This document shows, one piece after another, positions 38,113 through 64,000 of a stretch of 64,000 bases of DNA. The notes under the pieces are model-generated. The model worked only from the letters and a program-made list of their open reading frames with translations. It was not told where the DNA came from and did not search any database. Source of the stretch: Myxococcales bacterium. Lineage in GTDB: Bacteria; Desulfobacterota; Binatia; UTPRO1; JBBIJE01. The stretch is from NCBI GenBank assembly GCA_037446155.1, contig JBBIJE010000015.1, positions 11,318-75,317 on the forward strand. Direction: 5' to 3'. Each line of letters begins with the position of its first letter. Within the stretch, counting starts at the first letter, position 1. The position numbers were made by a program, and so were the translations under genes.

Positions 38113-38148
38113 TGTGCACCTCTGGTCACCGGCGCCTCGCCTCTTTTT

Positions 38149-42869: not shown

Positions 42870-43037
42870 GGCTTAAAGACTGCCTGAGTGGAGCGAAAAA
42901 ATCCAATCTCTATCGTCGCGGCGGGCCGGCGGGGGAAAGCTTATCGGGTGCGTTCTCTCGGGCGCTCGTGCCTGCCTGTTGACCGGTCCCAGGGGCGGGG
43001 TTAAGGAGGGGAGTCGAAGACCGGTTGGAGGGAAGCG

Positions 43038-43382
43038 ATGGGCGAGGACCAGGATGAGGTTTTGGCGTTCGATCTGAATGACAAGGTAGAGTTTGCTTCC
43101 GAGGGAATCGTGAGCAAGACGCTCCTTTCGACCGACCGGGCGCGCGTCGTGCTCTTTTGCTTCGATGCCGGACAGCTTCTCTCGGAGCACACCTCCGCCC
43201 ATCCCGCGTCGCTCCACATTCTAAGCGGGCGTTGTCGAGTCGGCCTCGGCGAGAGGGAAGAGGAAGCCGGGGCCGGGTTTTGGGCGCACATGCCCGCGCA
43301 TTTGCCTCACTCGATAGTGGCGAGCGAGCGAACGATAATGCTCCTTACCATCTATCGGCCGGCAAAGCCTAAAGGGGCGTAA
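43038..43382 (+). CDS. Cupin domain protein
   Basis: IVSKTL, FDAGQLLSEHTS, MPAHLPHSI. Confidence 0.88.
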   Translation: MGEDQDEVLAFDLNDKVEFASEGIVSKTLLSTDRARVVLFCFDAGQLLSEHTSAHPASLHILSGRCRVGLGEREEEAGAGFWAHMPAHLPHSIVASERTIMLLTIYRPAKPKGA

Positions 43383-43390
43383 GCCTTCGC

Positions 43391-43987
43391 GTGAGCAAGC
43401 GTTTGGCGATCCGGCTCCTCCTTGCGCTCGCTGCCCTCGCTCTCCTCGCAGTGGCCGGCTACCGGTGGCTCGGGGCTCCAGGCGGAGCCCAGGTCCCCGT
43501 TCCGCTTCGTTTGGACATGAGCCATCCCCGCTTCAATGAATCCCCACCCGGCTACACGACTCTCCTTCCGTCCGACACCTATACGGCGAGCCGCGGCTTC
43601 GGATGGTCCCAAGGGGTGGGGGCGTTCGACGCGAACACCTGGCGTGACGACCGCCTCGATCTCGATTCTCTCCACCGAGATGCCCACCTGGGATTGAACA
43701 CCGAGGAGGAGCGAGGCCCCTCCTTTCGGATCGACCTGCCCCCGGGGCGTTACCGATTGAAGGTCGTTACCGGTGCGGCGGTTCACGGTGTCCATGCTAT
43801 CGGCCTTCGGGTCAACGGCAAGAAGGCTCTGGATCTCCAGGAGATCGTGCCCGACGGCGAACCCCGGGAGTTCGTCTTGGAGGTCGAACCGGTGGACGGC
43901 AAGATCGAGATAGCACCTTTTACCGAAGATGGCACGGAGTGGCTGATCTCCGCGCTCGAGCTGGTCAGGGTCGGTGCCCCGCATTGA
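43391..43987 (+). CDS. Membrane-anchored or secreted protein with a galactose-binding-like beta-sandwich
   Basis: N-terminal TM/signal; YTASRGFGW, FRIDLPPGRYRLKV, ISALELV pattern of carbohydrate-binding jelly-roll domains. Confidence 0.6.
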   Translation: MSKRLAIRLLLALAALALLAVAGYRWLGAPGGAQVPVPLRLDMSHPRFNESPPGYTTLLPSDTYTASRGFGWSQGVGAFDANTWRDDRLDLDSLHRDAHLGLNTEEERGPSFRIDLPPGRYRLKVVTGAAVHGVHAIGLRVNGKKALDLQEIVPDGEPREFVLEVEPVDGKIEIAPFTEDGTEWLISALELVRVGAPH

Positions 43988-45398
43988 TCCGGCGCCGGCC
44001 GGGTCCTCGAAGGATTGCGGCGGCGGCGAGCCAGATCGCCAGCAGGGGAAGAAGGCTTGCGGTCGAATGGGGGAAGAGAAGCTCTCCCACGTTGAAGGAG
44101 TGCCAGTTTTCCGGGGGAGCAAGACGCAGGTACGAAAGCGGCGGCAGATAGTCGTCGAGTCCCTGGGGGTTTACCGAGATCTTGCCTTTCAGGAAGTAGG
44201 CCAGAACGAAGTCGCGAAGCGGATTGCCCAACCCAGCCGGCACCTCGACTCCGACGGCCGTTATTCCCAGCATGAAGGTGATGGATACCAGAGCGAGCGG
44301 GGAAAAGAGCGGGCTCGCTCGCCGCGCAGCCGCCGCGACAGGCAAGAAAAGGAAGGGCAGGCAGGGAACGAGGTAACGGGGCCCCGGCGCCCAGCCGCCC
44401 TGCCAGCCGTGGAAAGAAGAGACGAGGAGGAGGAAGGCTAGTGGCACGAGCGCGCAGACGAGAGCCTGTACCCGGTCCCGGCGCAGCAGCTCCGCCATGC
44501 CCAGGGGGGCCAGCGCGAGCATCGGGCTGGAGAAGAGAATGCCGTGGCGCGGCGAGAGGAGAAGCGCCGCCATCCGCTCGAGCCTAGGCGCTCCGAAGAA
44601 GCGGCCATTTTCGGCCACCATTACGGCGGGATTGGAGTGGGCGTAGCCGGTGGAAAAGGGACTGCCGAAGCAGAGATAGTAATAGATGCCAAGAGCCGCG
44701 AGTGCCGGCAGGCTGCCGGCGAAAACCCAGGGGCACAGCCGCTTCTCGCCCTTCCGAAGGCGTAGAGCGAAGGTGACCGCGGCCAAAACGAGGACGGTGC
44801 TCAGCTCCAGCGCAATCGCTACGCCGAAGGCCGCGCCGGCCGCCAGCGCATAGGCTGCTCCCTTTTCTCTCGTCCGAGCGGCGTTTACCAGCGCTAAGCC
44901 GGCAAAGCTCGAGGCCGCCGCGGGCTGGTGGGCGTAAAAGGCGGTGGCGTAAGGGAAGACGAGGGTCCCGAGCCCGAAGAGGAGCGCCAGCCAGGCACAC
45001 CGAGCCGCGGTGCCGAGCGAAAGGCCCATCAGTGCTCGGTACACCAGAAACCCCAAAAGCGCGCCGCTCGAAGCATTCACGGCAAGATTTGCGGCGTAAG
45101 CGGAGCGCCCGAGTCTCGTGGCCGGTTCGGCTTTGCCATTTAGGCGGTCTGCGATCAGGAAGGCGGGAAGCGCCAAAAACGATAAGCCTGGGCTTTTGTT
45201 CGTGTAGTAATGTCCCCCGTGGTAGGCCCAGTCGCCCGTGTTTCGGACGAAGCGATCTATGACTAGACCGTCGCCGCTTGCCAGCGCGCGAGTGAGGTCG
45301 AGCCGGGAGTTGGGGTTCCAGCCTCCCCCTTGGAAGAAATAAGCATAAGATACCGCTAGGGTAAGGAAGACGAGTATGCCGGCGTTCCGTTCGCGCAC
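43965..45398 (-). CDS. Multi-pass membrane protein, putative GT-C glycosyltransferase
   Basis: NPNSRLDLTRAL, GHYYTNKSPGLSFLALP, GILFSSP, GGWAPGPRYLVP; ~12 TM helices. Confidence 0.6.
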   Translation of the reverse strand: MRERNAGILVFLTLAVSYAYFFQGGGWNPNSRLDLTRALASGDGLVIDRFVRNTGDWAYHGGHYYTNKSPGLSFLALPAFLIADRLNGKAEPATRLGRSAYAANLAVNASSGALLGFLVYRALMGLSLGTAARCAWLALLFGLGTLVFPYATAFYAHQPAAASSFAGLALVNAARTREKGAAYALAAGAAFGVAIALELSTVLVLAAVTFALRLRKGEKRLCPWVFAGSLPALAALGIYYYLCFGSPFSTGYAHSNPAVMVAENGRFFGAPRLERMAALLLSPRHGILFSSPMLALAPLGMAELLRRDRVQALVCALVPLAFLLLVSSFHGWQGGWAPGPRYLVPCLPFLFLPVAAAARRASPLFSPLALVSITFMLGITAVGVEVPAGLGNPLRDFVLAYFLKGKISVNPQGLDDYLPPLSYLRLAPPENWHSFNVGELLFPHSTASLLPLLAIWLAAAAILRGPGRRRINAGHRP

Positions 45399-45411
45399 GG
45401 CCTGCCGGTTA

Positions 45412-47196
45412 CTACATGGCCGACATGCGCATGAGCATCGGCTGCTTCAGGAGCCAAAGGCTATAGAGGCTAAAGCCGACCATGCCGCAGAGCATCGGAA
45501 CTTGGCTCAGGCGGGCCCGCTTGGGGTCGGCGAACAACTTCCTTGCGCTTTCGCTTGCGGCCCAGAGTCCGTAAACGTGCCCCACGATTATCATCAGAAC
45601 CTGTAGATGCCAGAGGGAGCTCAGCGAAAGCAAGGGCGCAGGGAGGGTGTGTGCGGTTCCGAACAGGTTCCATCCCCAGCCGAAGGGGTCGGACGCGAGC
45701 TTTGTCACCTTCGGTCCCTCGACCAACAAATGCTCCAAGTTGTGCGCGAGGTGGTAAAAGAGCGCAATCGGGAGAAGCGGGTAGGCGAAACGCAGGAAGG
45801 CTTGCTCGTACCGAACGCTGGGATCGGCTGCGAGCCTGCGCCCGAGCTCGACGGTTGCCGCATAAAAGAGCAGGGGAAGGAGAAGGGCAGCCGCCATGCC
45901 GAGCGAAAAAGCTCCCAAACGGTTAGCCCCGAGCGCCGATGCCAGCCTCTCGGTCCACTCCTGCCAGGAAGGGGTCATGGTGAGGCCGTGGAAGGAGGCC
46001 AGGCTGAGCATCGCTATCGCAAGATAAGCCTCGTCGGCGCGCGGCCGCCTTATGCCTGCCAGGTCCGCCCCCCAGGGGCGAAGGTTCAGCCGCAGGTTGT
46101 CGGCCGGACAGGTTTTCAGGCACTCCGAGCAGAGCGTGCAGTAGGTGTTACTAGTGAGGCTACCCGGGAACTCGAACGTCGGGCAGCCGTATCCCCTCGC
46201 GTTTCCGTGCCAGCAGTCCTTGCCTCGGCACGTCTTGCACGTGTGCCGGTCGGCGGGTCTCAGCTCGATTCCGGCGAAGAGAGCGTAGAGCCCGCTTATA
46301 CGTCCTACCAAGCAACCATACCGGCAGAAGGACTTTCGCTCGAAAAGGGCTAGGGAGAGGAAGGTGAGAATCAAAATGAGGAGGCCCAAGTAGGCGGTAA
46401 GCCGGGGCCGCAAGCTCACACCAAAGCCGATCTCGATCCAGGTGAAGCCCAAAAAGAGGATCGTGGCAAGCCAAATGTTCCGAAGGGCCCTCGGCCACGG
46501 CAGTCCGAGCCCCAGGCCCTGCTCGCGCTTCCTCCAAAGCGCAAGTCTTTCGACCCAGGTGGAAAGCGCATCCCAAGGGCACACGTAACACCAGGCCTTG
46601 CCGAAATAGAGGATGAGAATCACGATTCCCGCCCACCAGACGGTCCAGGTGAGACAGGGTGCGATGTTGAGGGCTGGGTTTTGATTACCGAAGAGGCCGG
46701 CCGCGATTATCAGGACAAAGGCCGTGACCGTGGCTAGCTGGCCGCCGAATCTCGCCCTGCGCGACGTGGCAAGGGCGCGAAGGAACCGAAATCTCAGAAG
46801 GTTGAAGCGCGGCGGGGGATCGGAGCTCCGGGTAGTTGCGCGCGATCGGAGGTCGAAGAGAAGAAAGGAAAGGAGCAAAATCGCGGCGCAGGAGAGATAA
46901 TAGAGGCCAGAAGGTAAACCCTCCATCCGATGGGTTTCGGCGTCGCCCGAGTGAGGGCAGGGATGGGCGCTTTCGTGCGTGGCGGCACCCGGGGCGAAGG
47001 AAGGGTGGGCTGTCTCTTCGCTTACGGCCGCCTCGGCTTCCTGGTGGGAAGCGACGTTTTCGCCGCTCACGCCGGCCTGGGCCCCGCCCGAGACGAAAAC
47101 GCCAGCTGGGGGAGAGCCGCTTCGCTCGGCAGCGGCCAGAAGCAGGATCACGACCGGCAGGGCGTAGGGCCAGAAGATCGCAGCAAGCCGTTTCAT
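45412..47196 (-). CDS. 4Fe-4S binding membrane protein (NapH/FixG-like polyferredoxin)
   Basis: WCYVCPW, FCRYGCLVG, CKTCRGKDC, YCTLCSECLKTCP, YHLAHNL; His-containing N-terminal linker. Confidence 0.85.
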   Translation of the reverse strand: MKRLAAIFWPYALPVVILLLAAAERSGSPPAGVFVSGGAQAGVSGENVASHQEAEAAVSEETAHPSFAPGAATHESAHPCPHSGDAETHRMEGLPSGLYYLSCAAILLLSFLLFDLRSRATTRSSDPPPRFNLLRFRFLRALATSRRARFGGQLATVTAFVLIIAAGLFGNQNPALNIAPCLTWTVWWAGIVILILYFGKAWCYVCPWDALSTWVERLALWRKREQGLGLGLPWPRALRNIWLATILFLGFTWIEIGFGVSLRPRLTAYLGLLILILTFLSLALFERKSFCRYGCLVGRISGLYALFAGIELRPADRHTCKTCRGKDCWHGNARGYGCPTFEFPGSLTSNTYCTLCSECLKTCPADNLRLNLRPWGADLAGIRRPRADEAYLAIAMLSLASFHGLTMTPSWQEWTERLASALGANRLGAFSLGMAAALLLPLLFYAATVELGRRLAADPSVRYEQAFLRFAYPLLPIALFYHLAHNLEHLLVEGPKVTKLASDPFGWGWNLFGTAHTLPAPLLSLSSLWHLQVLMIIVGHVYGLWAASESARKLFADPKRARLSQVPMLCGMVGFSLYSLWLLKQPMLMRMSAM

Positions 47197-47723
47197 GCCT
47201 TCCCGGTGATTCGTTTTACGGCCACTATCGCGCCCACGAAGAGAGCGAGGCCGGCAGCGATGCTTCCCAATAACGCAAGCGGCCTTCCCCGGCTACCGAT
47301 TACGATGGGCAAGAGAACCCGCTCTTGCCGGGGTGGTGCCCCCCCAATGGTAAGCTCTGCCATGTAAGACCCCTCGACTGCAAAGCTGAGTCGAGCGCGG
47401 TAGAGGCCATCTCGGGGCGCAAGCGTCCGGCGCGGGGCCACTTCCCGATCACCCCGAAGCGCCGAGTGCGCGAGAAGCCTCAGGAAGAGGGGGCCTTCGT
47501 AAGGTCCTCCACTAGCAGCGTTGCGCACGTAGATCGTGAGATCCACGGGCTTTCCGGCTTGCGGTGTCGGAAGGGTCATGGCGATCTCGTAAGGGCCGCT
47601 TTTTGCGGCGTACTCCATGATCCTGTTTCCGCTCTGATCGACCCCGAGAGTTACGTCAACCGGCAAGTGGTCGGCGGCGCAAATCCGGGCAGAAAGCGAA
47701 AGCACGCCGCACGCAAGGAGCAA
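47193..47723 (-). CDS. Secreted YtkA/FixH-like Ig-fold protein with C-terminal TM anchor
   Basis: TTG at 47723 after AGAAGGGG; signal peptide; PQAGKPVDLTIYV...GLYRARLSFAVEGSY; C-terminal TM plus KR. ATGA overlap with the next gene. Confidence 0.6.
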   Translation of the reverse strand: MLLACGVLSLSARICAADHLPVDVTLGVDQSGNRIMEYAAKSGPYEIAMTLPTPQAGKPVDLTIYVRNAASGGPYEGPLFLRLLAHSALRGDREVAPRRTLAPRDGLYRARLSFAVEGSYMAELTIGGAPPRQERVLLPIVIGSRGRPLALLGSIAAGLALFVGAIVAVKRITGKA

Positions 47724-47763
47724 GCAGCCCCCCCTTCTAGCGCCGACGCCGGAGGTTAGGGCA

Positions 47764-48444
47764 CTAGGGAATACAGAAGGTCGTGTCGAAAACGCAGTTG
47801 GCACTGCAAAGAAGGGTTCCCCCGCCGGGAAAGCCGCGGCTTTCACACGTCTCGCCGTTCAAGTTAGTGCCGTCGCACAACTCCCCGCAAAAGGAGTCTA
47901 TCGTGCCGTTTCCGCAAAGCGGCGTGTTGACGCAGCCGCCGGCCCCCTCGTCGCACGAGTCGGTGGTACAGGCGTCGCCGTCGTCGCAGTCGAGTCCCCT
48001 AAAACCCGAGCACGCGGGAAGGCCCAAGTTGGCCGCCATGAGCTGTCTAACCCTATCGTTTTGGATGTTTATTAGGCAGTCGACGATGTCGTCTATGTCG
48101 GCGACACCGGGGCAATACGCGTTCGGAAAACCGAGTTGGGCCACCGTGACTCCGACGCATTTCTTCTTTATCCGCTGCCGGTTCTTTATCGCGGCAACGG
48201 CTATGGTGCGCATGGTTTCTTCCTCCTCCCAGCAGTCCTGAGGTGCGAGCAAGCCTTCCATGATCATCGACTCGCAGTTCGTAAGCGCTCGCAAGACCAC
48301 CTTGACGTACTTGCTCCCGGTCCGCGCGATCTGATACGCGCAGTCGCTGGAGATGGCCGCCGTGGCGGAAGCGGCCACCAACGCCACGGAACAGGAAAGA
48401 ATGCTAGCCAGCCGACGCGTTTTTTCCACGGTGCTCCTAAACAT
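47764..48444 (-). CDS. Secreted protein: helical Cys-rich domain plus Cys-rich repeats
   Basis: GGGAGG RBS; signal peptide; CAYQIARTGSKYVKVVLRALTNC; CDDGDACTTDSCD; CGNG...ELCDGTNLNGETCESRGF. Confidence 0.75.
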   Translation of the reverse strand: MFRSTVEKTRRLASILSCSVALVAASATAAISSDCAYQIARTGSKYVKVVLRALTNCESMIMEGLLAPQDCWEEEETMRTIAVAAIKNRQRIKKKCVGVTVAQLGFPNAYCPGVADIDDIVDCLINIQNDRVRQLMAANLGLPACSGFRGLDCDDGDACTTDSCDEGAGGCVNTPLCGNGTIDSFCGELCDGTNLNGETCESRGFPGGGTLLCSANCVFDTTFCIP

Positions 48445-48497
48445 GCAGAGACCCTCCCGACCCTTGGATTGCGCCCGCACTCGCTTTCTCCCCTTCC

Positions 48498-50183
48498 CTA
48501 CGGAAACAACTGGGGAACCCAAGCCTTGAACAGGTCTCGGACCACAGCCTCGTGGATACTCACTAGGCAGCTCGCCTCTCCGCTGGCGGTGGGCCGAGCC
48601 GGGTCGCACGGGTCGATGAATGGCATCACCTCCTCGGGGCAGAATTGCTCTACGGTGCCGATCATGGTATCTCGCGCCACCTCGGCCTTTCTTGCCGAGT
48701 TGGCATATTCCGTCCAGCAGTCAACCTGAGGTATCTTGCCCTTGACCATCTTCTTGGCGCAAAGACCTATGGCCCTCAGGTAGCTCTTGGTGGCGCGCAG
48801 CGAGCTCCTCAGGATCGTTTCCCGACAGTCCGCGACCAGGATCGAAGTGGAAGAGCCCAGAAAAACTCCCTGCTCGGTCAAAAGCGCCATTTGGCCTCGG
48901 CTATTGACCGCCGGTGCGTCCGGAGCAAACCCAGTGAACCTGCGGTTCGCCGGATCCGCAAGCCCTGCCTTGGCCGCAACCACCGTGAAGCTGGCGGGAC
49001 CGAAGGGCGGGGCGGAGCGAATGATTTCCCCGGGCGCCGCGCCGGGCAGCGGGTCCCCCGCCCGAAAATACACGTTGCCGAGACTATCCGATACCGGGTC
49101 ACTGAAAAGGTCGGTGGCATAGCTCCCGCCCGTTGTTTCGTCGGGGAAAAAGGTGGTAGCGTCGGCGATCATTTGGATGGTCCCGGGAAGAAAGGGGGGG
49201 CCCACGCGATAAATGCCCTGCCCCGATCCGGTAAGAGAATCGCAGTCGTCGGTAGGATCCGTAAGCGCCCTGAAGACCACGTCCCCGCCGTCGTTGATGG
49301 CCGGAGGCCCGCAGAATCGTGCTATGGTACCCCCCGTTTCTATCGGGTCACCTTTGGCTGCGGCGATCACGACGTCTCCGGTATCTGCGCTCGCTACGAA
49401 AATCGCGTCACAAAAGCCATCGGCGCCAAGGCACGCGGGATCGACATCGGTGCCCGCCACCTGACTCAAGAACGCGATGCTGTTTATCGAATTCATCGCC
49501 ACCACGCGCCGCATGGTTTCCCAGCCGCTCGAGCGCGCCTTGGCGAGATTCATGAAGAACCCGAGCACACGGCTCATCGTGGGTGCCCCGGTGGTCACCA
49601 CGGGGGTCGGCACCGCACCGAGTTCGTCGGGGAGAAAGACTACGGCTTCCAGCAATGCCCGCCAGTAAGAGACACCAGTGTGGCTGCTCGCGATCTGCCC
49701 GAACTTGCTGAAACAAGGCGAGCCGGCGAGCAAGATCTGATCCACGCTTCTATTGTTTTCGAGAATCCCTTGAATGGGCTCGCCGGGCCCCGAGCAGGAG
49801 CTGTGATATACCCCTGGCCCTCGGCTAAGCGGCAAATCATCCAGGGTCTGGAGCGTTCCTATCCCAGTGTTGTGTCCCTGGTTCGTAACGTAGGCGAGCT
49901 CGAAACCGGGCTGTTTGGTTTGAACCAGCACCTCGCATTGCGCCCCCACCGGACACTCGGGGTTGGTTGCGCCGGCCACTAGCGCCTTGAACGCTATGCG
50001 GCCGGAGTTGCTTATGCTCGGCTGGAAGAAGGCGGTGAATGTTCCTCCGACTTCTGCCGGTGCCGCATCTCCCGAAGACGCTACCTCGAAGAACGCAAAC
50101 TGCGCCCTGGCTTGACCGGGGAGCGATAGAACCAGCGCAGTCGCCACGCTCGCCGCTGATCTCGCTAGGTGCCTAAACCGCAT
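48498..50183 (-). CDS. Secreted beta-propeller with NxxGxxAF-type tandem repeats and C-terminal helical Cys-rich domain
   Basis: Signal peptide ending ARA; PSISNSGRIAF, PAINDGGDVVF, PVSDSLGNVYF, PAVNSRGQMAL. Confidence 0.75.
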   Translation of the reverse strand: MRFRHLARSAASVATALVLSLPGQARAQFAFFEVASSGDAAPAEVGGTFTAFFQPSISNSGRIAFKALVAGATNPECPVGAQCEVLVQTKQPGFELAYVTNQGHNTGIGTLQTLDDLPLSRGPGVYHSSCSGPGEPIQGILENNRSVDQILLAGSPCFSKFGQIASSHTGVSYWRALLEAVVFLPDELGAVPTPVVTTGAPTMSRVLGFFMNLAKARSSGWETMRRVVAMNSINSIAFLSQVAGTDVDPACLGADGFCDAIFVASADTGDVVIAAAKGDPIETGGTIARFCGPPAINDGGDVVFRALTDPTDDCDSLTGSGQGIYRVGPPFLPGTIQMIADATTFFPDETTGGSYATDLFSDPVSDSLGNVYFRAGDPLPGAAPGEIIRSAPPFGPASFTVVAAKAGLADPANRRFTGFAPDAPAVNSRGQMALLTEQGVFLGSSTSILVADCRETILRSSLRATKSYLRAIGLCAKKMVKGKIPQVDCWTEYANSARKAEVARDTMIGTVEQFCPEEVMPFIDPCDPARPTASGEASCLVSIHEAVVRDLFKAWVPQLFP

Positions 50184-50223
50184 GGATCCTCCACTGGGTG
50201 GTTCTACCTCTTTCCTCCTCGCT

Positions 50224-52323: not shown

Positions 52324-52372
52324 TTTTTTACCTCTTTTCCAGTGAATCTGGTTCTCACCTCGAAACCTTTCC

Positions 52373-54481: not shown

Positions 54482-54521
54482 GTCAGGTTGACCTCCGCAT
54501 AGGCTGTTCCCGGTGCAGGCG

Positions 54522-58769: not shown

Positions 58770-58771
58770 CT

Positions 58772-60160
58772 CTAGTCCTCGATGTACCCGAGCTCCGCGA
58801 GCTGGCGCTTGACCAGCGGATCGAAGTCGGGCTCGCGACTCAAAGCTCCTTCTGGCGATCTGCGCGCCGCGAGCCAGCCCCCCAACTTCTCGCGCAAGTC
58901 GGCCACGAGTTCCGGGTTTTCGGCTGCGATGTCGCGATTCTCGCCGGGGTCGTTTTGGAGGTCGAAGAGAAATTCCTGCCCGTCGCTTTGCCAGATGTAC
59001 TTGTGGGTGCGGGTCCGAAGAGCCCTTCGACGGACGTCGTGCACCCTGCAGTCGAAAAGCGGATACCGCTCCCTGAAGACGCGAAGGTTAGGGCGGAATT
59101 TCTCCGATACCGTGAAAGTACGATCCGGCGCGACCAAGCCGCCGCGGTCGGCTAGCGCCATCCCCTCGACCGGAGGCGGTTCGATCCGAAGCAGGCTGCC
59201 AAGCGTTGGCAGGATATCCACGGTCTGCGCCAGGGCGTCCGAGACGACACCCACCGGGACAAGCCCAGGGCAGCTCATAATGAGCGGCACCCTGAGGAGC
59301 GTGTCGTAGAGCACGAACTTGTGGCTCATGAGGCCATGGTCGCCCAAGTTTTCCCCATGATCGGCGGTGATCACGAAGAGGGTCCGTTTCAGTCGGCCGG
59401 CGGACTCGAGGATCCGCTCGATCTTGCCGACGAGAGAATCCGCGTACCTAATCTCGCCGTCGTAGAGCGCGGTCAGGATCTTGAAGTCTTCCGCACCCAT
59501 CTCCACGTAGCCGGCGATGTACTTGTTGCAATCCTGATTGACCGACTTTACGCGGCTTCGCGGCACGCCGTTCAGAAACAGCCGATCGTACGGTCTCGGA
59601 GGGTGGTACTTGAGGTGAGGCTCGTTAAGGTGCACGAAGGCGAAAAATGGCTTTTCTTGCGGAACCTCGCTTAGCCAGCGAGCAAAGGCCCGAACCGACC
59701 TTCGTCCGCCGGAATCCCTGCGGCCAAGCGCAGCGTCGATGAGCTTCTGGGAGAAGAAATACTGCCGGGTCAGCTTTTTAAACCGCGGCCGATGGTCGAA
59801 AAAGAATTCGAAGCCCCTCGCTAAGCCGGTCTCGACGATCCAAGGGTTGGCGCAAAACCCCGCTGTCGCGTAGCCCGCGTCGCGGAGCATCTCGGCCAAC
59901 GTGGGAATATGGGGCTCGAGTCTTCTGTGCTCATCTGTCGCTCCGTGGCTGGAGGGATAAAGACCGGTAAAAAGAGAAGCGTGCGAAGGCAGAGTCCAGG
60001 GCGCGGTGGTGATCATGTGGGAGAAGCGCACACCCTGCGCCGCCAGCCTGTCTATGTTCGGCGTTGTTGGAAAACGGTACCCGTAACAGGAAAAATGGTC
60101 CGCCCGCGCGCAGTCGAGAAGAATCAGGAGCACGTTCTCTCTGGGGTTTGGGTAAATCAT
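58772..60160 (-). CDS. Sulfatase-like (alkaline phosphatase superfamily) protein
   Basis: NVLLILLDCARADH, WTLPSHASLFTG, YDGEI, TADHGE, DPGE, C-terminal LAELGYIED. Confidence 0.88.
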   Translation of the reverse strand: MIYPNPRENVLLILLDCARADHFSCYGYRFPTTPNIDRLAAQGVRFSHMITTAPWTLPSHASLFTGLYPSSHGATDEHRRLEPHIPTLAEMLRDAGYATAGFCANPWIVETGLARGFEFFFDHRPRFKKLTRQYFFSQKLIDAALGRRDSGGRRSVRAFARWLSEVPQEKPFFAFVHLNEPHLKYHPPRPYDRLFLNGVPRSRVKSVNQDCNKYIAGYVEMGAEDFKILTALYDGEIRYADSLVGKIERILESAGRLKRTLFVITADHGENLGDHGLMSHKFVLYDTLLRVPLIMSCPGLVPVGVVSDALAQTVDILPTLGSLLRIEPPPVEGMALADRGGLVAPDRTFTVSEKFRPNLRVFRERYPLFDCRVHDVRRRALRTRTHKYIWQSDGQEFLFDLQNDPGENRDIAAENPELVADLREKLGGWLAARRSPEGALSREPDFDPLVKRQLAELGYIED

Positions 60161-60590
60161 TTACAAATCAGCAGCGCTGAGTGCCGACCGGGGATTAACT
60201 CCCGTCTTGGGTGCCTAACTTTCACCCCAGCGGCCGGGCCCCCTAAGCCATGGTTTGGGGCTACGCCCGCGCTCCCCGGGGGCAGCCCACTGCGGCACTA
60301 TAGCGAACCCAATTACAGGGACCGGTTGGGCCGGACAATAGACCGGAAGGGTTCAAAACGGGTCTAGGCCCTAGGTACCGCTGAAGCAACCATGGGCTGG
60401 CGAGGAAAGATCGGTATGTTCCCGAGTCAAGCCATGCGCTTAGGCCTCGGCAGATGGCACTGCACCGCCCGGAGGAAAGAGCCTCTCGTTGACGGTGGGC
60501 GAGTACCAATATCGTGGAAACAACGGTCGGGCGAAGGGGTGGCGTTCCCGACAACAGATGGCTTGAGCGCGACTGTGAGATCGGCGGGGG

Positions 60591-61580
60591 CTAAGGATTG
60601 GGGATTGTGGCGTCGAGGAACTTGAAGTACTCCACGTCGTCGTCGGGGAACTCGAAAATGTCCCCGTCCGGGCCTCGGATAGTATCCGGGCCCGGCTTTA
60701 TCCCGGATATGTCCACTCCAGGGTCGGTGCTGTTGAACGCAAACGTTGCTGTGTCGCTGCCCGTTCCGCCGCGGATCTGATCGACTTCCACTTGGCCCTC
60801 GATTTCTTCTGCCCTGCCGAGCTCGATGACGTCGTCGTTTGGGCCAGAATCGACCGAGTCATTGCCCCTGTTCGGGGTAACGAGGTCGGTGCCGCTTCCC
60901 GCAAGAATGCTGTCGTCGTCGGCCCCCCCTCGCAAGATATCGTTGCCCGATCCTCCGTCCATAACGTCGCTGCCCGGCCCCCCGATGATTACGTCGTCTC
61001 CATTCCCCCCGTTTAGCGTGTCGTTTCCCTTCCCCCCGATTATCCCATCCTGCCCGTCACTGCCGTTTATGGTATCGTCGTCCTCCCGACCTTCGATGAT
61101 ATCCGACCCGCTTCCACCGGTGATCAGGTCGTTCCCCAGTCCCGCGGACACGACGTTCTCCCCCTCGCCGGCAGCAATTGTATCCGCGCCATGGCTTCCT
61201 AGGATCGCGTCATCGCCCAAACCCCCATCGATGTTGTCATTTCCCTTGCCGCCGCTGATACTGTCGTTTCCGTCGCCCCCCTCGATCAGGTTCGCGTCGC
61301 GCGAGCGATCGGCGCTGATGATATCGTTACCCGCTTCCCCTTTCAGTACGTTAAGGCCTTTGCTTCCCTCTATTATGTCCGGCCCGTCTCGTCCCTCGAG
61401 GGTGTCGTTACCTTTCCGACCCTCGAGGATGTCGCTTCCCGCCGTGCCGATAAACACATCATCGAAGTTCGTGCCGACGCAAATGGGAGGGCAAGTCGCG
61501 GGAACGATCGATTGTGCCCACGCCGTGCTGCCCGGCATGCAGAGCAGCCCAAATACGATCGGCAGTTTCGCCAGCCTCAC
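60591..61580 (-). CDS. Calcium-binding RTX-like (GGxGxD) repeat protein with signal peptide
   Basis: GTGA-coupled start at 61580 (the track ATG at 61595 is an alternative); signal peptide ending AWA; ~20 nonapeptide repeats. Confidence 0.85.
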   Translation of the reverse strand: MRLAKLPIVFGLLCMPGSTAWAQSIVPATCPPICVGTNFDDVFIGTAGSDILEGRKGNDTLEGRDGPDIIEGSKGLNVLKGEAGNDIISADRSRDANLIEGGDGNDSISGGKGNDNIDGGLGDDAILGSHGADTIAAGEGENVVSAGLGNDLITGGSGSDIIEGREDDDTINGSDGQDGIIGGKGNDTLNGGNGDDVIIGGPGSDVMDGGSGNDILRGGADDDSILAGSGTDLVTPNRGNDSVDSGPNDDVIELGRAEEIEGQVEVDQIRGGTGSDTATFAFNSTDPGVDISGIKPGPDTIRGPDGDIFEFPDDDVEYFKFLDATIPNP

Positions 61581-62386
61581 GGTGCGAAGGTACATATCTC
61601 TACCGTTCCGTCGAACTTGTATACGTCGTTTCCACCCGAGTCGGGGCCGATCACGTAGTCGGGGCAGTTGTTGACCACCCCCTGAGCGGGGTCGTCTTGA
61701 AAACCGAAGTCGGCCGTATCCGACCCCGCCCCACCGAAAACGAGATTGATTTCCGCGTCACCGTCGACATTCTCCGGATAGTCTCCAAGGACAATCGTAT
61801 CGTTTCCATCTTCCCCAAAAATTATGTCGCTTCCCACCCCGCCTCGCAGGACATCGTCGCCAGCCCCCCCCCTCACTACGTCGTCGCCAGGGCCGCTTCC
61901 GATGGTATCGGCGCCGTCGCCTCCCGAGACTATGTCCCAGCCGTCGCCCGACGAGATTGTGTCGGCGCCGTCGCCGCCGTCGATGATGTCCTGTCCCTTG
62001 TCCGATGTGACGACGTCGTCGCCGGAACCGCCGACGATTATGTCGCCAGTCCTACCGCTCCGGAGAATGTCCGCACCCGGTCCCCCATCGAGCAAGTTGC
62101 GGCCCCGGCCCCGTTCGACGAGCTCGTCGTCTCCATCCCCGCCGAACAGCAGGTCGTTCTTGCCATTGCCTTCCGCGTTATCGCGGCCATCGCCGGCGGA
62201 GATCAGGTCCCTGCCGCCGCCCCCGAAAATATCATCGCCCGCTGCCGAGCCGGTAATTTCGTCGTTGCCGCTCGTGCCGATGATCGTAGCTGCCTGGAGA
62301 ACGCCGACATAGGGGAAAGTCAGGACCGCGCTGATCGCTGCTCCTACAAGCAGAGCCCCCGTCCGCGTGAGGCGCAACCTTCTCAC
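61577..62386 (-). CDS. Calcium-binding RTX-like (GGxGxD) repeat protein with signal peptide
   Basis: Signal peptide ending LQA; tandem GGDGADTI-type repeats; C-terminus paralogous to that of the neighbouring RTX gene. Confidence 0.85.
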   Translation of the reverse strand: MRRLRLTRTGALLVGAAISAVLTFPYVGVLQAATIIGTSGNDEITGSAAGDDIFGGGGRDLISAGDGRDNAEGNGKNDLLFGGDGDDELVERGRGRNLLDGGPGADILRSGRTGDIIVGGSGDDVVTSDKGQDIIDGGDGADTISSGDGWDIVSGGDGADTIGSGPGDDVVRGGAGDDVLRGGVGSDIIFGEDGNDTIVLGDYPENVDGDAEINLVFGGAGSDTADFGFQDDPAQGVVNNCPDYVIGPDSGGNDVYKFDGTVEICTFAP

Positions 62387-64000
62387 GGTTCCCTAACCTT
62401 CACCACAGGGCCGATCAGTTGTGCCTCGCGAGCGTCAAAGAGGCAGAGCCGGTTCGGCTCGTCTACGCACTCGCCGTCAGGCGCGCAGCTCGAGCTTTCG
62501 GTGCAGAGCGTCCCATCGTTGGGGCCCCCGCGGCAAATCATCCGCCCCGGATCGGCCTCGAAGACGAGCACTCCCCAACGCCGCGATGTCAGAGGCCGCG
62601 AGCTTGCGCCCGGACCGCGTATGATGAGCTGTCCGAGAACACCGCCGCGAGCGATGTCGAAGAAGAAAATCGATTGATCGGGGTTGCCATGGCTGGGTAT
62701 CAGGTCGCAGGTAGATTCGAACGCGACAAATGTTCCCTTCGAAGAGACGATCGGTTGGTTGTTCTCGCAAGCCTGGGTGTGGGTAAGTTGCGCGAAGCCG
62801 GTTTTCTCGTCCCAGAGGAAGATCTCGCGGTTGAGGTCGGGGTTCTCGCCCGTAAGGTCGGCGTCTGACATGAACGCGACGACCCGTTTTTTACTCTGAG
62901 CCGGCTCCTCGCTCACGGTTGCGTGGACGCATGCGCCGAAGGGGCAGTCGGAAGGGGCCCCGCAGGCCTGCAAGTGGTGGGGACCTCCCTGGCATCTGTC
63001 GCTCGAGGAGTCGATCCGAGTGATCTGCGTTACGCTATCGAACGTTTTCACGATTCGATAAATCTGGCGGATCCCGAGCGGATTAGGCTCGAGGAGGCTG
63101 CCGGTCGAGCTGAACGCCGTGGCCCTCGTCGAGAAGTTGACGCTGCGACCCACGATGCTCTCTCCGTCGGGAGCCGTCGTAATCTGTTGGAGCGCTCCCG
63201 AGCGGTGGATCCAGAGAAAGAGCTCGCGCGAGCCGTCCGCGTTCCCGCAAGATCCTCCGGGACAGTTGACGTCGCTCCCACAGGGCGCCCCAACGAAAAG
63301 GCCACCTGCACAGGTCCCGCTGGCCAGGTCACCGGGAGAGTCGAAGACCAGAAGGTTGCCCCGCATAGCTCTCAGATTAGGGTGCAGATTCTTGACGGTT
63401 TGGCTCGCAGTATCTGCCGTTCGGCTAACCTGGTTGAGTATGCGCCTCTTGAGGTCGAAATGGAAGACCTCCCTGTTGTGGTCAGTATTACCACAAGTGC
63501 CCCCTGCGCAATCGGCGTCGGTCTCGCACTGAGTGATGGGGTCGAAGAGACCGCCGGGAATCGTTCCTTCGCAAAAACTCGCGTTTGATACGAACGCAAG
63601 AAACCTGCCGCTGCCATTTGTCGTTGGCATCTCGTTGATGATGGCGATACTCGAAAAGTCGTTTTCTGAAGTGTTGGTCACCTGCTGGAGAGACATCCGT
63701 AGCGCAGTATCTTGATCGCTACCTTTCTTGAGGGCTTTGAGGAAAAGCTTGCGGCTGAAGACGTAGATCTCTCTATTGCGGTCGGGGTTGAGTCCCAAGT
63801 AGTCGGCGGTGGATTCGAAAGCGACATGCTTCGCATTGACGCTGATGGTTGCGTTCTCTCCCTCGAAGCAAGAGAGATCCTCGAGTTCGCAGTTGAAGCA
63901 GCCGTCATCTGGCAGATTGTTGCCGTCATCGCACTCCTCGGGTGGGTCTAGGACGCCGTCGCCGCACTCTACAGAGGAAGTGCAATCCGGCTCGCAGCCG
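62383..64000 (-). CDS. Cys-rich repeat / TolB-like beta-propeller protein (5' end outside window)
   Basis: The frame stays open to the edge: GCEPDCTSSVECGDGVLDPPEECDDGNN...; repeated VAFxSxxDL..NxDxNREIF blades with inserted Cys-rich mini-domains. Confidence 0.8.
   Translation of the reverse strand, partial: GCEPDCTSSVECGDGVLDPPEECDDGNNLPDDGCFNCELEDLSCFEGENATISVNAKHVAFESTADYLGLNPDRNREIYVFSRKLFLKALKKGSDQDTALRMSLQQVTNTSENDFSSIAIINEMPTTNGSGRFLAFVSNASFCEGTIPGGLFDPITQCETDADCAGGTCGNTDHNREVFHFDLKRRILNQVSRTADTASQTVKNLHPNLRAMRGNLLVFDSPGDLASGTCAGGLFVGAPCGSDVNCPGGSCGNADGSRELFLWIHRSGALQQITTAPDGESIVGRSVNFSTRATAFSSTGSLLEPNPLGIRQIYRIVKTFDSVTQITRIDSSSDRCQGGPHHLQACGAPSDCPFGACVHATVSEEPAQSKKRVVAFMSDADLTGENPDLNREIFLWDEKTGFAQLTHTQACENNQPIVSSKGTFVAFESTCDLIPSHGNPDQSIFFFDIARGGVLGQLIIRGPGASSRPLTSRRWGVLVFEADPGRMICRGGPNDGTLCTESSSCAPDGECVDEPNRLCLFDAREAQLIGPVVKVREP

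What the first reader, a model, noticed from the sequence alone, without database searches (positions are those of the whole stretch)
43965..64000. Candidate undescribed system: 20-kb locus for a modular, disulfide-rich, Ca-dependent, glycan-decorated surface complex
Fourteen consecutive minus-strand genes, many with overlapping stops and starts. In order: Cys-knotted TolB-like propeller, two RTX proteins, two Thr-type sulfatase-like enzymes, GT4, GT2, dockerin-tailed beta-helix, cohesin/Thr-stalk scaffold, NxxGxxAF propeller, small Cys-rich protein, YtkA-like protein, polyferredoxin, GT-C. The secreted members share interchangeable modules (CGDG/CDDG repeats, 4-Cys inserts, helical Cys domain, Ca loops). 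Inference: structural subunits, their assembly modules and their modification enzymes are co-encoded, like a cellulosome-style adhesion or sheath system without hydrolases. The locus continues beyond the window.
Basis: partly seen in the sequence, partly recalled or inferred. Interest (0 to 1): 0.75.

Follow-up and report, generated by a model that had tools for sequence, protein, structure and literature searches.

The report
Cohesin–dockerin-like pair in envelope gene cluster
A tightly packed run of cell-envelope genes from an uncultured bacterium holds two neighbouring secreted proteins that look built to plug into each other, but nothing shows that all fourteen genes form one machine.

Summary
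Most labels hold: two RTX proteins, two sulfatase-fold enzymes with Thr at the formylglycine position, GT4, GT2, a beta-helix protein, a DUF7453 protein and a NapH-like polyferredoxin. The GT-C label has lead-level support. TolB-like and YtkA-like are below significance.

The best-supported specific link is between two neighbours. g09 has a cohesin-like head: 16 of 19 relatives carry Pfam Cohesin, and its profile hits solved cohesins. g08 ends in an 85-residue dockerin-like module that Pfam does not recognise. That module sits in the same polypeptide as a cohesin in 9 of 18 metagenomic relatives. Binding is not shown.

The 14-gene "one system" reading is not supported:
- A 430-nt gap splits the array, and the same-strand run continues through metH.
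- The shared Cys modules also occur outside the locus.
- The window holds only one cohesin and one docking tail.
- No conserved synteny could be retrieved.
- No g09-like protein was returned from the two contigs carrying close g08 orthologues.

g09's tandem helical Cys domain has no Pfam family and no PDB fold match. Interest is moderate.

The parts
62383..64000 (-). g01, cut at its 5' end by the window. It has a DUF4215/myxo_disulf_rpt Cys repeat, then repeats with four C-x-D-x-C-x-G-x-C hairpin inserts. A propeller fold is only weakly indicated.
   Evidence: DUF4215 at 2.6e-7. TIGR02232 at 26.8 bits, above the 20.8 cut-off. PD40 at E=0.011, below the cut-off; four Cys hairpins; 4.8% Cys.
61577..62386 (-). 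g02, an RTX (beta-roll) Ca-binding protein with an N-terminal Sec-type signal peptide.
   Evidence: HemolysinCabind at 1.2e-30; the start overlaps the g01 stop by 4 nt. The signal peptide was read from the sequence.
60591..61595 (-). g03, a second RTX Ca-binding protein with a Sec-type signal peptide. It is 34% identical to g02.
   Evidence: HemolysinCabind at 1.3e-53; g02/g03 BLASTP at 1.2e-28.
60161..60590 (.). A 430-nt intergenic gap, the only long one in the array and a likely boundary between transcription units. It holds a doubtful 97-aa ORF.
   Evidence: gene starts; no family for the ORF at 60261-60554; no Rfam family; promoter and terminator matches are near chance.
58772..60160 (-). 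g04, a cytoplasmic sulfatase-fold (alkaline-phosphatase superfamily) enzyme with Thr at the formylglycine position.
   Evidence: Sulfatase at 7.5e-48; the alignment to 4upl puts the Thr of WTLPSH on the Cys of CGSSR, with Arg replaced by His.
56703..58769 (-). g05, a sulfatase-fold enzyme with a hydrophobic N-terminal region of about 250 aa and the same Thr variant (WTLPAH). It is 34% identical to g04.
   Evidence: Sulfatase at 9e-46 over residues 260-564; g04/g05 at 3.9e-62. The motif was read from the sequence.
55582..56706 (-). g06, a GT4 glycosyltransferase. The ATG at 56706 overlaps the g05 stop.
   Evidence: Glycos_transf_1 at 1.6e-39. TIGR03088 at 183 bits, below the 409 cut-off; start choice.
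54522..55589 (-). g07, a GT2 glycosyltransferase with a hydrophobic C-terminal segment.
   Evidence: Glycos_transf_2 at 6.2e-28; best matches are MftF-, EpsD- and HpnI-like, all far below their cut-offs; the GTG at 55589 has a strong SD-like motif.
52832..54379 (-). g08 beta-helix domain (residues ~35-550). The whole gene is 52373-54481 and has a signal peptide.
   Evidence: AF2 10-residue block mean pLDDT is mostly 80-98 over residues ~40-550 (lowest 61), with pTM 0.73; no PDB match at E<=0.001; the nearest are beta-helix adhesins; 28 relatives, only 2 of them close.
52376..52630 (-). g08 C-terminal dockerin-like module (residues ~618-702). It has two D-x-D/N-x-D/N/S-G-x5-D loops, each followed by a hydrophobic stretch, and conserved Cys residues.
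   Evidence: alignment A3, 43-52% identical to the module in P0029, P0034, P0039 and P0045; the module is found in 9 of 18 cohesin relatives; loops at residues 621 and 667; no Pfam Dockerin_1 hit; pLDDT below 35.
51679..52251 (-). g09 cohesin-like head (residues 25-215) with a Cys-rich insert of about 55 residues.
   Evidence: 19 relatives. Pfam Cohesin in 16 of 19, with 12 above the gathering score; profile A2 hits solved cohesins, 2xdh_A at 5.2e-4. Atlas lead at 0.87; no direct Pfam hit.
51394..51678 (-). g09 Thr/Pro/Ser-rich stalk (residues ~216-310).
   Evidence: Read directly from the translation.
50227..51393 (-). g09 C-terminal part: an acidic double-disulfide / EF-hand-like motif, then two copies of an all-helical Cys-rich domain with no known family.
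   Evidence: acid_disulf_rpt at 26 bits, below the cut-off. AF2 pLDDT 82.4, pTM 0.84; no PDB fold match, best E 0.1 and TM-scores no higher than 0.26; 6 relatives; those relatives carry varied heads.
48498..50183 (-). g10, a DUF7453 / NxxGxxAF-repeat secreted protein with a C-terminal helical Cys segment.
   Evidence: DUF7453 at 7.1e-13. TIGR05002 at 33.6 bits, below the cut-off of 50; its C-terminus matches the g11 N-terminus at 6.9e-4; hhalign to the g09 domain is weak, E 0.016.
47764..48444 (-). g11, a small secreted Cys-rich protein: a helical Cys domain followed by a Dicty_CTDC-type repeat.
   Evidence: Dicty_CTDC at 1.6e-7; hhalign to the g09 helical domain at E 9.2e-5, probability 59%; 7.5% Cys.
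47193..47723 (-). g12, a small protein with a hydrophobic N-terminal leader and a hydrophobic C-terminal stretch. The YtkA-like Ig fold is only weakly indicated.
   Evidence: YtkA at E=0.076, covering profile positions 2-81 of 85; the TTG at 47723 has an SD-like motif.
45412..47196 (-). g13, a membrane NapH-type polyferredoxin with a His/Glu-rich N-terminal stretch.
   Evidence: Fer4_5 at 8e-5. NapH/MauN at 4.6e-8, 33 bits against a cut-off of 213; no PDB relative.
43965..45398 (-). g14, a polytopic membrane protein and probable GT-C-type glycosyltransferase.
   Evidence: NF047440 at 48 bits against a cut-off of 200. Atlas score 0.99 to RgtA/B/C/D-like and PMT/PMT_2 clusters; no Pfam family and no PDB sequence relative.

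Best explanation
The 20-kb stretch is a tightly packed, co-directional cell-envelope gene neighbourhood in the chromosome of an uncultured Gram-negative bacterium. It is not one 14-gene machine, and it probably comprises at least two transcription units.

It mixes three kinds of genes:
- **(A) Exported modular proteins** (g01-g03, g08-g11). They are Sec-exported and Cys-rich or Ca-binding, and are built from modules that recur in many combinations in metagenomic relatives.
- **(B) An ordinary-looking glycoconjugate cassette** (g04-g07). It holds two alkaline-phosphatase-superfamily enzymes that cannot be formylglycine sulfatases because Thr replaces the Cys. By analogy with other Thr-nucleophile members of that superfamily, they are probably phosphoester hydrolases or transferases. 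A GT4 and a membrane GT2 complete the cassette.
- **(C) A membrane trio** (g12-g14): an Ig-like anchored protein, a NapH-type polyferredoxin and a GT-C.

The one specific protein-protein link with evidence is g08-g09. g09 is a stalked protein with a cohesin-like head, a Thr/Pro stalk, and a tandem helical disulfide 'base' domain of unknown fold. g08 is a beta-helix protein ending in a Cys-braced, two-loop, Ca-type dockerin-like module.

The most likely mechanism, which is inferred and not shown, is that the g08 tail plugs into the g09 head in a Ca-dependent cohesin-dockerin-type interaction. g09 would then hold one beta-helix protein at the end of a stalk.

What is shown: the domain identities, and the co-occurrence of the two modules in single polypeptides elsewhere. 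What is inferred: binding, Ca dependence, location (periplasm or surface), and any glycosylation of the stalk.
For: **g09 head is cohesin-like.**
- An exhaustive HMMER search with g09 residues 25-215 gave 19 relatives at E<=1e-3.
- 16 of the 19 carry Pfam Cohesin at E<=0.01, and 12 exceed the gathering score, often at the matched coordinates.
- A profile of g09 plus 12 relatives hits solved cohesins: 2xdh_A at 5.2e-4, the NagJ cohesin at 3.2e-3, and 3ul4 at 0.028.
- The Atlas feature search gives a cohesin lead at 0.87.

**g08 tail is a conserved dockerin-like module.**
- It is a conserved module of about 85 residues, 43-52% identical to segments in four cohesin-bearing proteins.
- It carries two EF-/dockerin-type loops, at residues 621 and 667.
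- An HMM of the tail finds it in 9 of 18 cohesin relatives. Five of the nine were not in the training set (E 1e-26 to 1e-35). Six proteins show a cohesin-tail-cohesin order.
- By contrast, the tail is in only 3 of 28 beta-helix relatives and 0 of 6 helical-domain relatives. The tail therefore travels with cohesins, not with the beta-helix.

**Architecture and context.**
- The g08 beta-helix is confidently modelled.
- The g09 base is confidently modelled (pLDDT 82.4). The same base sits behind varied heads in 6 relatives, which suggests a base-plus-passenger design.
- g08 and g09 are adjacent with a 49-nt spacer.
- The mosaic view rests on four observations: the 430-nt gap; the same-strand run continuing through metH; a DUF4215 protein outside the locus; and exactly one cohesin and one tail in the 64-kb window.
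Against: - Pfam Cohesin and Dockerin_1 do not match g09 or g08 directly, even at E<=10.
- None of the 9 other tail-bearing proteins has a Dockerin_1 hit at E<=0.01.
- hhalign of the tail against a Pfam-verified dockerin segment is weak: E 0.013, probability 3.3%.
- The tail is unmodelled in AF2 (pLDDT below 35), so its fold is unknown.
- In six relatives the tail lies between two cohesins in one chain. It could therefore be a structural linker or an intramolecular partner rather than a trans-acting plug.
- No g09-like protein was returned from the two contigs carrying close g08 orthologues. One of those, P0002, is cut at its N-terminus, so its contig should run on downstream. Those searches saw only proteins of 384-1224 aa.
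- No secretion or anchoring route to the surface is evident.
- Gene order in relatives could not be examined.
Confidence: 0.45

Rival explanations
1. All 14 genes encode one dedicated system. It would comprise structural subunits, their assembly modules and their own glycan- or phospho-modifying enzymes, and would form a Ca-dependent, disulfide-rich, glycosylated surface complex or sheath.
For: - Spacing is tight: 12 of 13 junctions are overlaps or gaps of 53 nt or less.
- Modules are shared among the exported proteins.
- Ca-type motifs occur in g02, g03, g08 and g09.
- A long Thr-rich stalk lies in the same array as a GT4, a GT2 and a probable GT-C.
- Composition is uniform across the stretch.
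Against: - A 430-nt gap separates g03 from g04.
- The same-strand run continues for another ~12 kb through metH, a second GT-C and radical-SAM genes. Co-direction is therefore not specific to the locus.
- The window holds only one cohesin and one docking tail. The RTX proteins, g01 and g10 have no docking module.
- The shared Cys repeat is also in a gene at 8662-10926.
- In the genome scan, 0 of 3 loci showed related neighbours.
- No g09-like protein was found on the contigs of close g08 orthologues.
- There is no exporter, anchor or sortase-type gene.
Confidence: 0.1
2. The neighbours are functionally unrelated. The lineage carries many modular Cys-rich exoproteins, and g08 and g09 simply lie side by side. 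Their cohesin-like and dockerin-like modules would bind partners encoded elsewhere, or the tail would be a structural inter-domain element that binds nothing in trans.
For: - The modules recur in many architectures: varied heads on the helical base, and varied tails on the beta-helix family.
- The tail lies between two cohesins in one chain in six relatives.
- No g09-like protein was returned from the contigs of close g08 orthologues.
- Other secreted repeat proteins are scattered over the window: DUF4215 at 8662-10926, FG-GAP at 13104-14381, and NHL at 28210-30413.
Against: - In 64 kb there is exactly one cohesin and one tail, and they sit in adjacent genes 49 nt apart.
- The two module types are strongly linked by co-occurrence in single proteins: 9 of 18, against 3 of 28 and 0 of 6 in the other families.
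Confidence: 0.3
3. This is a sub-hypothesis, compatible with the best explanation. The membrane GT2 (g07) makes a lipid-linked sugar. The GT-C (g14) transfers that sugar on the periplasmic side onto the Thr-rich stalk of g09, as PMT-type GT-C enzymes O-glycosylate Ser/Thr-rich secreted proteins. The description of PMT enzymes is recalled knowledge and was not tested here.
For: - g14 resembles PMT/PMT_2 and RgtA-like GT-C clusters and an NCBIfam putative glycosyltransferase family.
- g07 is a membrane GT2.
- The g09 stalk is about 95 residues of almost pure Thr/Ser/Pro.
- All three genes are on the same side of the 430-nt gap.
Against: - g07's best family matches are MftF-, EpsD- and HpnI-like. 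The match to the polyprenyl-phosphate transferase ArnC is marginal (E 0.0029).
- g14 has no Pfam hit.
- A second GT-C lies 5 kb away, outside the locus.
- There is no direct evidence for any glycan.
Confidence: 0.15

Closest known systems
Non-cellulosomal cohesin- and dockerin-like modules. The reference is Peer et al. 2009, FEMS Microbiol Lett 291:1. Only its citation was seen, in the reference list of PMC6487960. The paper itself is not held, so its content is recalled. Solved examples hit here are the cohesin 2xdh_A and the NagJ cohesin 2jh2/2o4e.
   Same: A single cohesin-like module and a dockerin-like two-loop module occur in proteins that carry no plant-cell-wall enzymes, in an organism with no sign of cellulolysis. 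The profile of the g09 head hits these solved cohesins.
   Different: - The docking module is not recognised by Pfam Dockerin_1.
- It carries conserved Cys residues and a longer inter-loop segment.
- The cohesin has a Cys-rich insert of about 55 residues.
- The scaffold ends in an unknown tandem helical Cys domain.
Cellulosome scaffoldin systems of Clostridia and Ruminococcus
   Same: The logic is the same: a cohesin on a linker-rich scaffold, and a dockerin-like tail on a passenger protein encoded nearby.
   Different: - There is one cohesin, not several.
- There are no glycoside hydrolases or CBMs.
- No SLH or sortase anchoring module is present.
- The context is Gram-negative, with MotA/MotB-OmpA genes in the window.
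- The passenger is a beta-helix of unknown activity.
Cysteine-rich acidic repeat proteins of the Myxococcus type (TIGR02232 / Pfam DUF4215)
   Same: g01 and g08 carry the repeat above the NCBIfam cut-off. Relatives are named 'cysteine-rich repeat protein' by their sources.
   Different: The family is a repeat, not a system. Here the repeat is one module among several, and it also occurs outside the locus.
Thr-nucleophile members of the alkaline-phosphatase superfamily (NPP, EptA/MCR-type phosphoethanolamine transferases, LtaS). Their properties are recalled knowledge.
   Same: g04 and g05 have Thr at the nucleophile position. g05 has a hydrophobic N-terminal domain, as EptA and LtaS do. Weak NCBIfam matches to EptA, CptA and YejM are seen.
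   Different: Overall, g04 and g05 are much closer to true arylsulfatases and choline sulfatases, and they carry the SGSH_C subdomain. g04 has no membrane domain.
CcoG/FixG-FixH type pair: a membrane polyferredoxin plus an Ig-like membrane protein. This comparison is recalled.
   Same: A NapH-type polyferredoxin (g13) lies next to a small anchored protein with a possible YtkA-like Ig fold (g12).
   Different: No FixG_C or FixH family match was seen. The matches to NapH/MauN are far below the cut-offs, and YtkA is at E=0.076.

Membership tests
Cohesin (Pfam PF00963) | Direct significant match of the protein to the Cohesin HMM | tested here: not met
   g09 whole and g09 residues 25-215 give no Cohesin hit at E<=0.01 or E<=10.
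Cohesin (Pfam PF00963) | Homology to bona fide cohesins through intermediates or a profile | tested here: met
   16 of 19 HMMER relatives carry PF00963, and 12 are above the gathering score. Profile A2 hits solved cohesins: 2xdh_A at 5.2e-4, 2jh2_A at 3.2e-3 and 3ul4_A at 0.028.
Cohesin (Pfam PF00963) | Jelly-roll beta-sandwich fold | not tested
Cohesin / dockerin pair | Ca-dependent binding of the dockerin to the cohesin | not testable with these tools
   This needs a binding assay. See Tried and rejected for the one computational attempt.
Dockerin type I (Pfam PF00404) | Significant match to the Dockerin_1 HMM | tested here: not met
   There is no hit for the g08 tail at E<=10. None of the 9 other tail-bearing proteins has Dockerin_1 at E<=0.01. 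hhalign against a Pfam-verified dockerin segment gives E 0.013, probability 3.3%.
Dockerin type I (Pfam PF00404) | Two duplicated segments, each a 12-residue Ca-binding loop followed by a helix | tested here: inconclusive
   Two loops fitting D-x-D/N-x-D/N/S-G-x5-D lie at residues 621 and 667 and are conserved in alignment A3. The helices are not confirmed, because the AF2 tail has pLDDT below 35.
Cellulosome | Scaffoldin with multiple cohesins | tested here: not met
   The HMM search finds one cohesin in g09 and no other in the six-frame translation of the window.
Cellulosome | Dockerin-borne carbohydrate-active hydrolases | tested here: not met
   No GH, PL, CE or CBM family is found in any locus protein. 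The only tail-bearing protein is a beta-helix with no significant PDB match.
Formylglycine-dependent (type I) sulfatase | C/S-x-P-x-R motif supplying the formylglycine nucleophile | tested here: not met
   g04 reads T-L-P-S-H and g05 reads T-L-P-A-H at the aligned position.
Formylglycine-dependent (type I) sulfatase | Sulfatase fold with the C-terminal subdomain | tested here: met
   PF00884 at 7.5e-48 and 9e-46, and SGSH_C at 5.4e-9 and 4e-12.
RTX type-1-secreted proteins | Ca-binding nonapeptide repeats | tested here: met
   HemolysinCabind at 1.2e-30 and 1.3e-53, with nine GGxGxD cores in each protein.
RTX type-1-secreted proteins | No N-terminal signal peptide, a C-terminal secretion signal, and linked ABC/MFP exporter genes | tested here: not met
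   Both proteins begin with Sec-type signal peptides, read. No ABC or MFP family is found in the locus.
GT-C glycosyltransferases (PMT / ArnT / RgtA-like) | Family-level sequence match | tested here: inconclusive
   There is no Pfam hit. NF047440 scores 48 bits against a cut-off of 200. The Atlas feature score is 0.99 to RgtA-like and PMT/PMT_2 clusters, which is a lead rather than an alignment. There is no PDB sequence relative.
TolB / PD40 beta-propeller | PD40 repeats above threshold | tested here: not met
   PD40 at E=0.011 and 16.2 bits, below the cut-off of 20.9. There is no PDB sequence relative.
PEP-CTERM/XrtA-associated glycosyltransferase (TIGR03088) | Score above the curated cut-off | tested here: not met
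   g06 scores 183 bits against a cut-off of 409.

The most novel reading that the evidence does not exclude
An uncultured Gram-negative lineage uses a so-far undescribed docking system. A Cys-braced, dockerin-like 85-residue module, invisible to Pfam Dockerin_1, plugs into insert-bearing cohesin-like modules. This includes self-linking cohesin-tail-cohesin proteins. In this locus, a stalked scaffold stands on a new tandem helical disulfide domain with no Pfam family and no PDB fold match. It would display a beta-helix protein, and the co-encoded GT2/GT-C and Thr-type phospho-transferases would decorate the Thr-rich stalk. That would make it a Gram-negative, non-degradative counterpart of cellulosome-style display.
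Probability: 0.15. Interest if true: 0.7.

Novelty: new variant of a known kind. Interest (0 to 1): 0.4.

Why it matters
Cohesin-dockerin pairing is best known from cellulosomes of Gram-positive anaerobes. Non-cellulosomal copies are known to be widespread, but what they do is mostly unknown.

This locus offers a compact test case. There is exactly one cohesin-like head and one docking-type tail, in adjacent genes. The passenger (a beta-helix) and the base (a tandem helical Cys domain) are both confidently modelled yet unassigned.

If the pair binds, three things would follow:
- It would define a docking-module variant that current family models miss.
- It would give a handle on how the very numerous Cys-rich modular exoproteins of uncultured soil and sediment bacteria are organised.
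- It would supply a new orthogonal, disulfide-stabilised docking pair for protein engineering.

If the pair does not bind, the locus is an ordinary envelope gene neighbourhood.

Tried and rejected
1. **Synteny.**
Their neighbours are an ordinary polysaccharide cluster and methyltransferases, and none resembles this locus.
Gene order around the metagenomic relatives therefore stayed unchecked.
- As a proxy I compared the 'longest contig' lengths. 0 of the 6 g09-base relatives share a length with any of the 28 g08 relatives. This is indirect and limited to proteins of 384-1224 aa.

2. **Complex prediction.** The job paired the g09 head (A2, residues 1-191) with the g08 tail (A3, residues 12-103). 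It gave no verdict: score 0.20 against a mark of 0.32, with the controls not run. It counts neither for nor against binding.

3. **Direct Pfam tests of 'dockerin' and 'cohesin'** on the window's own proteins gave no hits.

4. **Foldseek against the PDB** gave no match at E<=0.001 for either the g08 model or the g09-base model.

5. **A3 profile against the PDB** found no dockerin. It did hit the Cys-repeat region of pappalysin-1.

6. **Promoter and terminator scan**: counts were near the shuffled expectation, so it is uninformative. Rfam found nothing in 42000-64000.

7. **PDB sequence searches** for g13, g14, g10 and g01 found nothing meaningful.

8. **Considered and rejected.**
- RTX toxin / T1SS system: the proteins have Sec signal peptides and there is no exporter.
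- True sulfatases: Thr sits at the formylglycine site.
- PEP-CTERM system: g06 is below the cut-off and no sorting tails are present.
- Horizontally acquired island: G+C is 0.606-0.639, like the rest of the window.

9. **Taxon.** It was not determined. Source names on distant relatives disagree: 'Deltaproteobacteria bacterium' and 'Candidatus Limnocylindria bacterium'.

10. **Literature.** Searches for DUF4215, DUF7453/NxxGxxAF/TIGR02232, and cohesin+dockerin with several phyla gave no description of such a locus. These were search listings only, except for passages of bioRxiv 10.1101/2023.11.21.568195. No supplements were consulted.

Full report
**What is there.** The window is about 62% G+C throughout, and the stretch has no compositional break. 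From 64000 down to 43965, the long ORFs on the minus strand form one uninterrupted series. I label them g01 (62383-64000, cut by the window end) to g14 (43965-45398).

Of the 15 candidate ORFs, 11 hit a Pfam family at E<=0.01. A 97-aa ORF at 60261-60554 has no family, no SD-like motif and a TTG start, and I do not count it as a gene.

- g01: Cys-repeat protein
- g02, g03: two RTX proteins
- g04, g05: two sulfatase-fold enzymes
- g06: GT4
- g07: GT2
- g08: beta-helix protein
- g09: stalked protein
- g10: DUF7453/NxxGxxAF protein
- g11: small Cys-rich protein
- g12: small anchored protein
- g13: polyferredoxin
- g14: polytopic membrane protein

**Checking the labels.**
- *RTX.* HemolysinCabind at 1.2e-30 and 1.3e-53. 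Both proteins start with Sec-type signal peptides, visible. No ABC or MFP exporter is in the locus, so they are not classical type-1-secreted RTX proteins.
- *'Thr-type sulfatase-like'.* This is correct. Both proteins have the Sulfatase fold. In the alignment of g04 to solved sulfatases, the Thr of WTLPSH falls on the Cys of CGSSR and the motif Arg is His. g05 reads WTLPAH. They cannot make formylglycine. By analogy with other Thr-nucleophile members of the alkaline-phosphatase superfamily (recalled knowledge), a phosphoester hydrolase or transferase role is likelier than sulfatase activity.
- *GT4 and GT2.* Both are solid, but neither reaches any curated equivalog cut-off.
- *g14.* It has no Pfam hit. 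It scores 48 bits against an NCBIfam putative glycosyltransferase family (cut-off 200) and 0.99 in the Atlas against RgtA-like and PMT/PMT_2 clusters. GT-C is likely but not proven.
- *g13.* It is NapH-like only at low score.
- *g12.* It is YtkA-like only at E=0.076.
- *g01.* Its propeller rests on PD40 at E=0.011.

**Gene spacing.** I re-chose starts by SD-like motifs and signal peptides. With those starts, 5 of 13 junctions overlap by 4-19 nt, 7 are gaps of 2-53 nt, and one, between g03 and g04, is 430 nt. The stretch is therefore probably at least two transcription units.

Consensus promoter and terminator scans are at chance level, and Rfam finds nothing. The same-strand run does not stop at 43965. 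After a 1.1-kb stretch with no family hits come metH, a second GT-C-like gene, a 1020-aa protein with a spermidine-synthase-like domain, a radical-SAM gene and an AMMECR1/Memo fusion. All of these are on the minus strand, down to about 31512. Co-direction therefore says little about function.

**Shared modules.**
- CGDG...CDDGN repeats are in g01 and g08.
- Four Cys-hairpin inserts are in g01 and two in g09.
- EF-hand-type loops are in the g08 tail and after the g09 stalk.
- Cys content is 2.5-7.5% in the exported proteins g01 and g08-g11, against 1.0-2.5% in the enzymes g04-g07 and g14.
- The helical Cys domain of g09 is related to the N-terminus of g11 (hhalign E 9.2e-5, probability 59%). 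Its relation to the C-terminus of g10 is weaker (E 0.016; g10 against g11 BLASTP 6.9e-4).

These modules are not specific to the locus, however. The best BLASTP match of g01's repeat is a gene at 8662-10926, which also carries DUF4215. FG-GAP and NHL repeat proteins lie elsewhere in the window.

**The cohesin-like head.** Pfam Cohesin does not match g09 directly. A word-indexed search with residues 1-215 found nothing. An exhaustive HMMER search with residues 25-215 found 19 relatives at E<=1e-3. In 18 of them the match covered about residues 100-205 of g09.

Sixteen of the 19 carry Pfam Cohesin at E<=0.01, and 12 are above the gathering score, often at the very coordinates matched. A profile of g09 plus 12 relatives (A2) hits solved cohesins: 2xdh_A at 5.2e-4, the NagJ cohesin at 3.2e-3, and 3ul4_A at 0.028. 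The Atlas gave a cohesin lead at 0.87. I accept a cohesin-like module with a Cys-rich insert.

**The dockerin-like tail.** AF2 models g08 residues ~40-550 as a beta-helix with mostly high confidence, but leaves residues 589-702 unmodelled. Foldseek finds only generic beta-helix adhesins, none significant.

The last ~85 residues are nevertheless a conserved module. They align at 43-52% identity with segments of four cohesin-bearing proteins (A3). They carry two loops fitting D-x-D/N-x-D/N/S-G-x5-D.

Pfam Dockerin_1 does not match the tail, nor any of the nine other proteins that carry it. hhalign against a Pfam-verified dockerin segment is weak (E 0.013). It is dockerin-like by motif and is not a demonstrable family member.

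**The link between the two modules.** An HMM of the tail finds it in 9 of the 18 cohesin relatives. Five of those nine were not used to build the HMM (E 1e-26 to 1e-35). Six proteins have the order cohesin-tail-cohesin. The tail is in only 3 of 28 beta-helix relatives, two of which are the close orthologues, and in 0 of 6 relatives of the g09 base.

In the six-frame translation of the whole window there is exactly one tail and one cohesin, in adjacent genes 49 nt apart. This domain-fusion pattern is the main evidence that the g08 tail and the g09 head belong to one interaction system. It does not show binding. The internal position of the tail in six proteins leaves open that it is a linker or an intramolecular partner.

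**The scaffold's base.** Residues 311-699 of g09 have six relatives at 30-45% identity. The same tandem domain sits behind varied heads in those relatives: a cohesin-like-looking segment (judged by eye), a P_proprotein domain, FG-GAP repeats and a galactose-binding-like domain. In one protein it sits in front of the passenger.

AF2 models it as two all-helical repeats with pLDDT 82.4 and pTM 0.84. Foldseek finds no PDB match: best E is 0.1 and TM-scores reach at most 0.26. There is no Pfam family. This looks like a base-plus-passenger architecture on an undescribed domain.

**Is it one system?** The evidence does not support that.
- g09 has one cohesin.
- The RTX proteins, g01 and g10 have no docking module.
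- A long gap splits the array.
- The genome scan, with g07 as anchor, found 3 distant loci, none with similar neighbours.
- The two contigs with close g08 orthologues are those of P0001 (81% identical to g08,377 nt) and P0002 (89%, 70,771 nt). P0002 is N-terminally cut, so its contig should continue downstream. Neither returned a g09-like protein of 384-1224 aa in either search.
- No contig length is shared between the 28 g08 relatives and the 6 g09-base relatives.

These last points are indirect.

**Most likely mechanism.** g09 is an exported stalked protein, and g08 is its probable passenger through a Ca-type cohesin-dockerin-like contact. This is inferred. g10 and g11 share a helical Cys domain with the g09 base and may associate through it, which is speculative.

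The g04-g07 cassette and g14 most simply belong to envelope glycoconjugate synthesis. A role in O-glycosylating the Thr-rich stalk is possible but untested. Where the proteins end up, periplasm or surface, is unknown.

**Comparison with what is known.** Non-cellulosomal cohesin- and dockerin-like modules are known to be widespread. The reference is Peer et al. 2009, seen only as a citation, with its content recalled. Dockerin-bearing giant proteins in uncultured bacteria are described in passages of bioRxiv 10.1101/2023.11.21.568195.

My searches of the held library for DUF4215, DUF7453/NxxGxxAF/TIGR02232, and cohesin+dockerin with several phyla listed nothing describing a locus or tail module of this kind. 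Those were search listings only, and supplements were not consulted.

**Verdict.**
- Novelty: a new variant of a known kind.
- Interest: 0.4.

Noticed in passing
window 8662-10926 (-): A 754-aa protein outside the locus carries DUF7467, DUF7507 and the same DUF4215 Cys repeat. Its repeat is the best BLASTP match of g01's repeat.
   Followed up: partly
window 31512-34246 (-): A Memo + AMMECR1 fusion protein overlaps a radical-SAM gene. This looks like the known AmmeMemoRadiSam trio in fused form; that name is recalled.
   Followed up: no
window 34233-39285 (-): A 1020-aa protein with a spermidine/spermine-synthase-like domain lies next to a second GT-C-like protein (PMT_2 / PIG-V hits), just downstream of metH.
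   Followed up: no
window 42870-43964: A 1.1-kb stretch between g14 and metH has only ORFs without family hits. No Rfam family is found there, so no cobalamin riboswitch is detected upstream of metH at gathering score.
   Followed up: partly
window 50227-51393 (-) and proteins P0048-P0053: A tandem all-helical Cys-rich domain is confidently modelled (pLDDT 82.4) but has no Pfam family and no PDB fold match. It is attached to varied passenger domains in six metagenomic proteins.
   Followed up: partly
proteins P0029, P0031, P0034, P0037, P0038, P0043: Six metagenomic proteins show a recurrent cohesin - dockerin-like tail - cohesin cassette. Such proteins could in principle chain head to tail.
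   Followed up: partly
alignment A3 (DUF4215 part of g08 and its relatives): The bacterial CGDG...CDDGN Cys repeat profile hits the corresponding repeat region of human pappalysin-1 structures at E~9e-4.
   Followed up: no
L001 6599-9376 (+): In the polysaccharide-synthesis locus that holds a 34%-identical relative of GT2 g07, a 925-aa protein with Dockerin_1 and a T9SS sorting tail lies two genes upstream of the GT2.
   Followed up: no
window 28210-30413 (+): Two overlapping long ORFs both give NHL-repeat propeller hits. This may be one gene with a frameshift, or two tandem genes.
   Followed up: no
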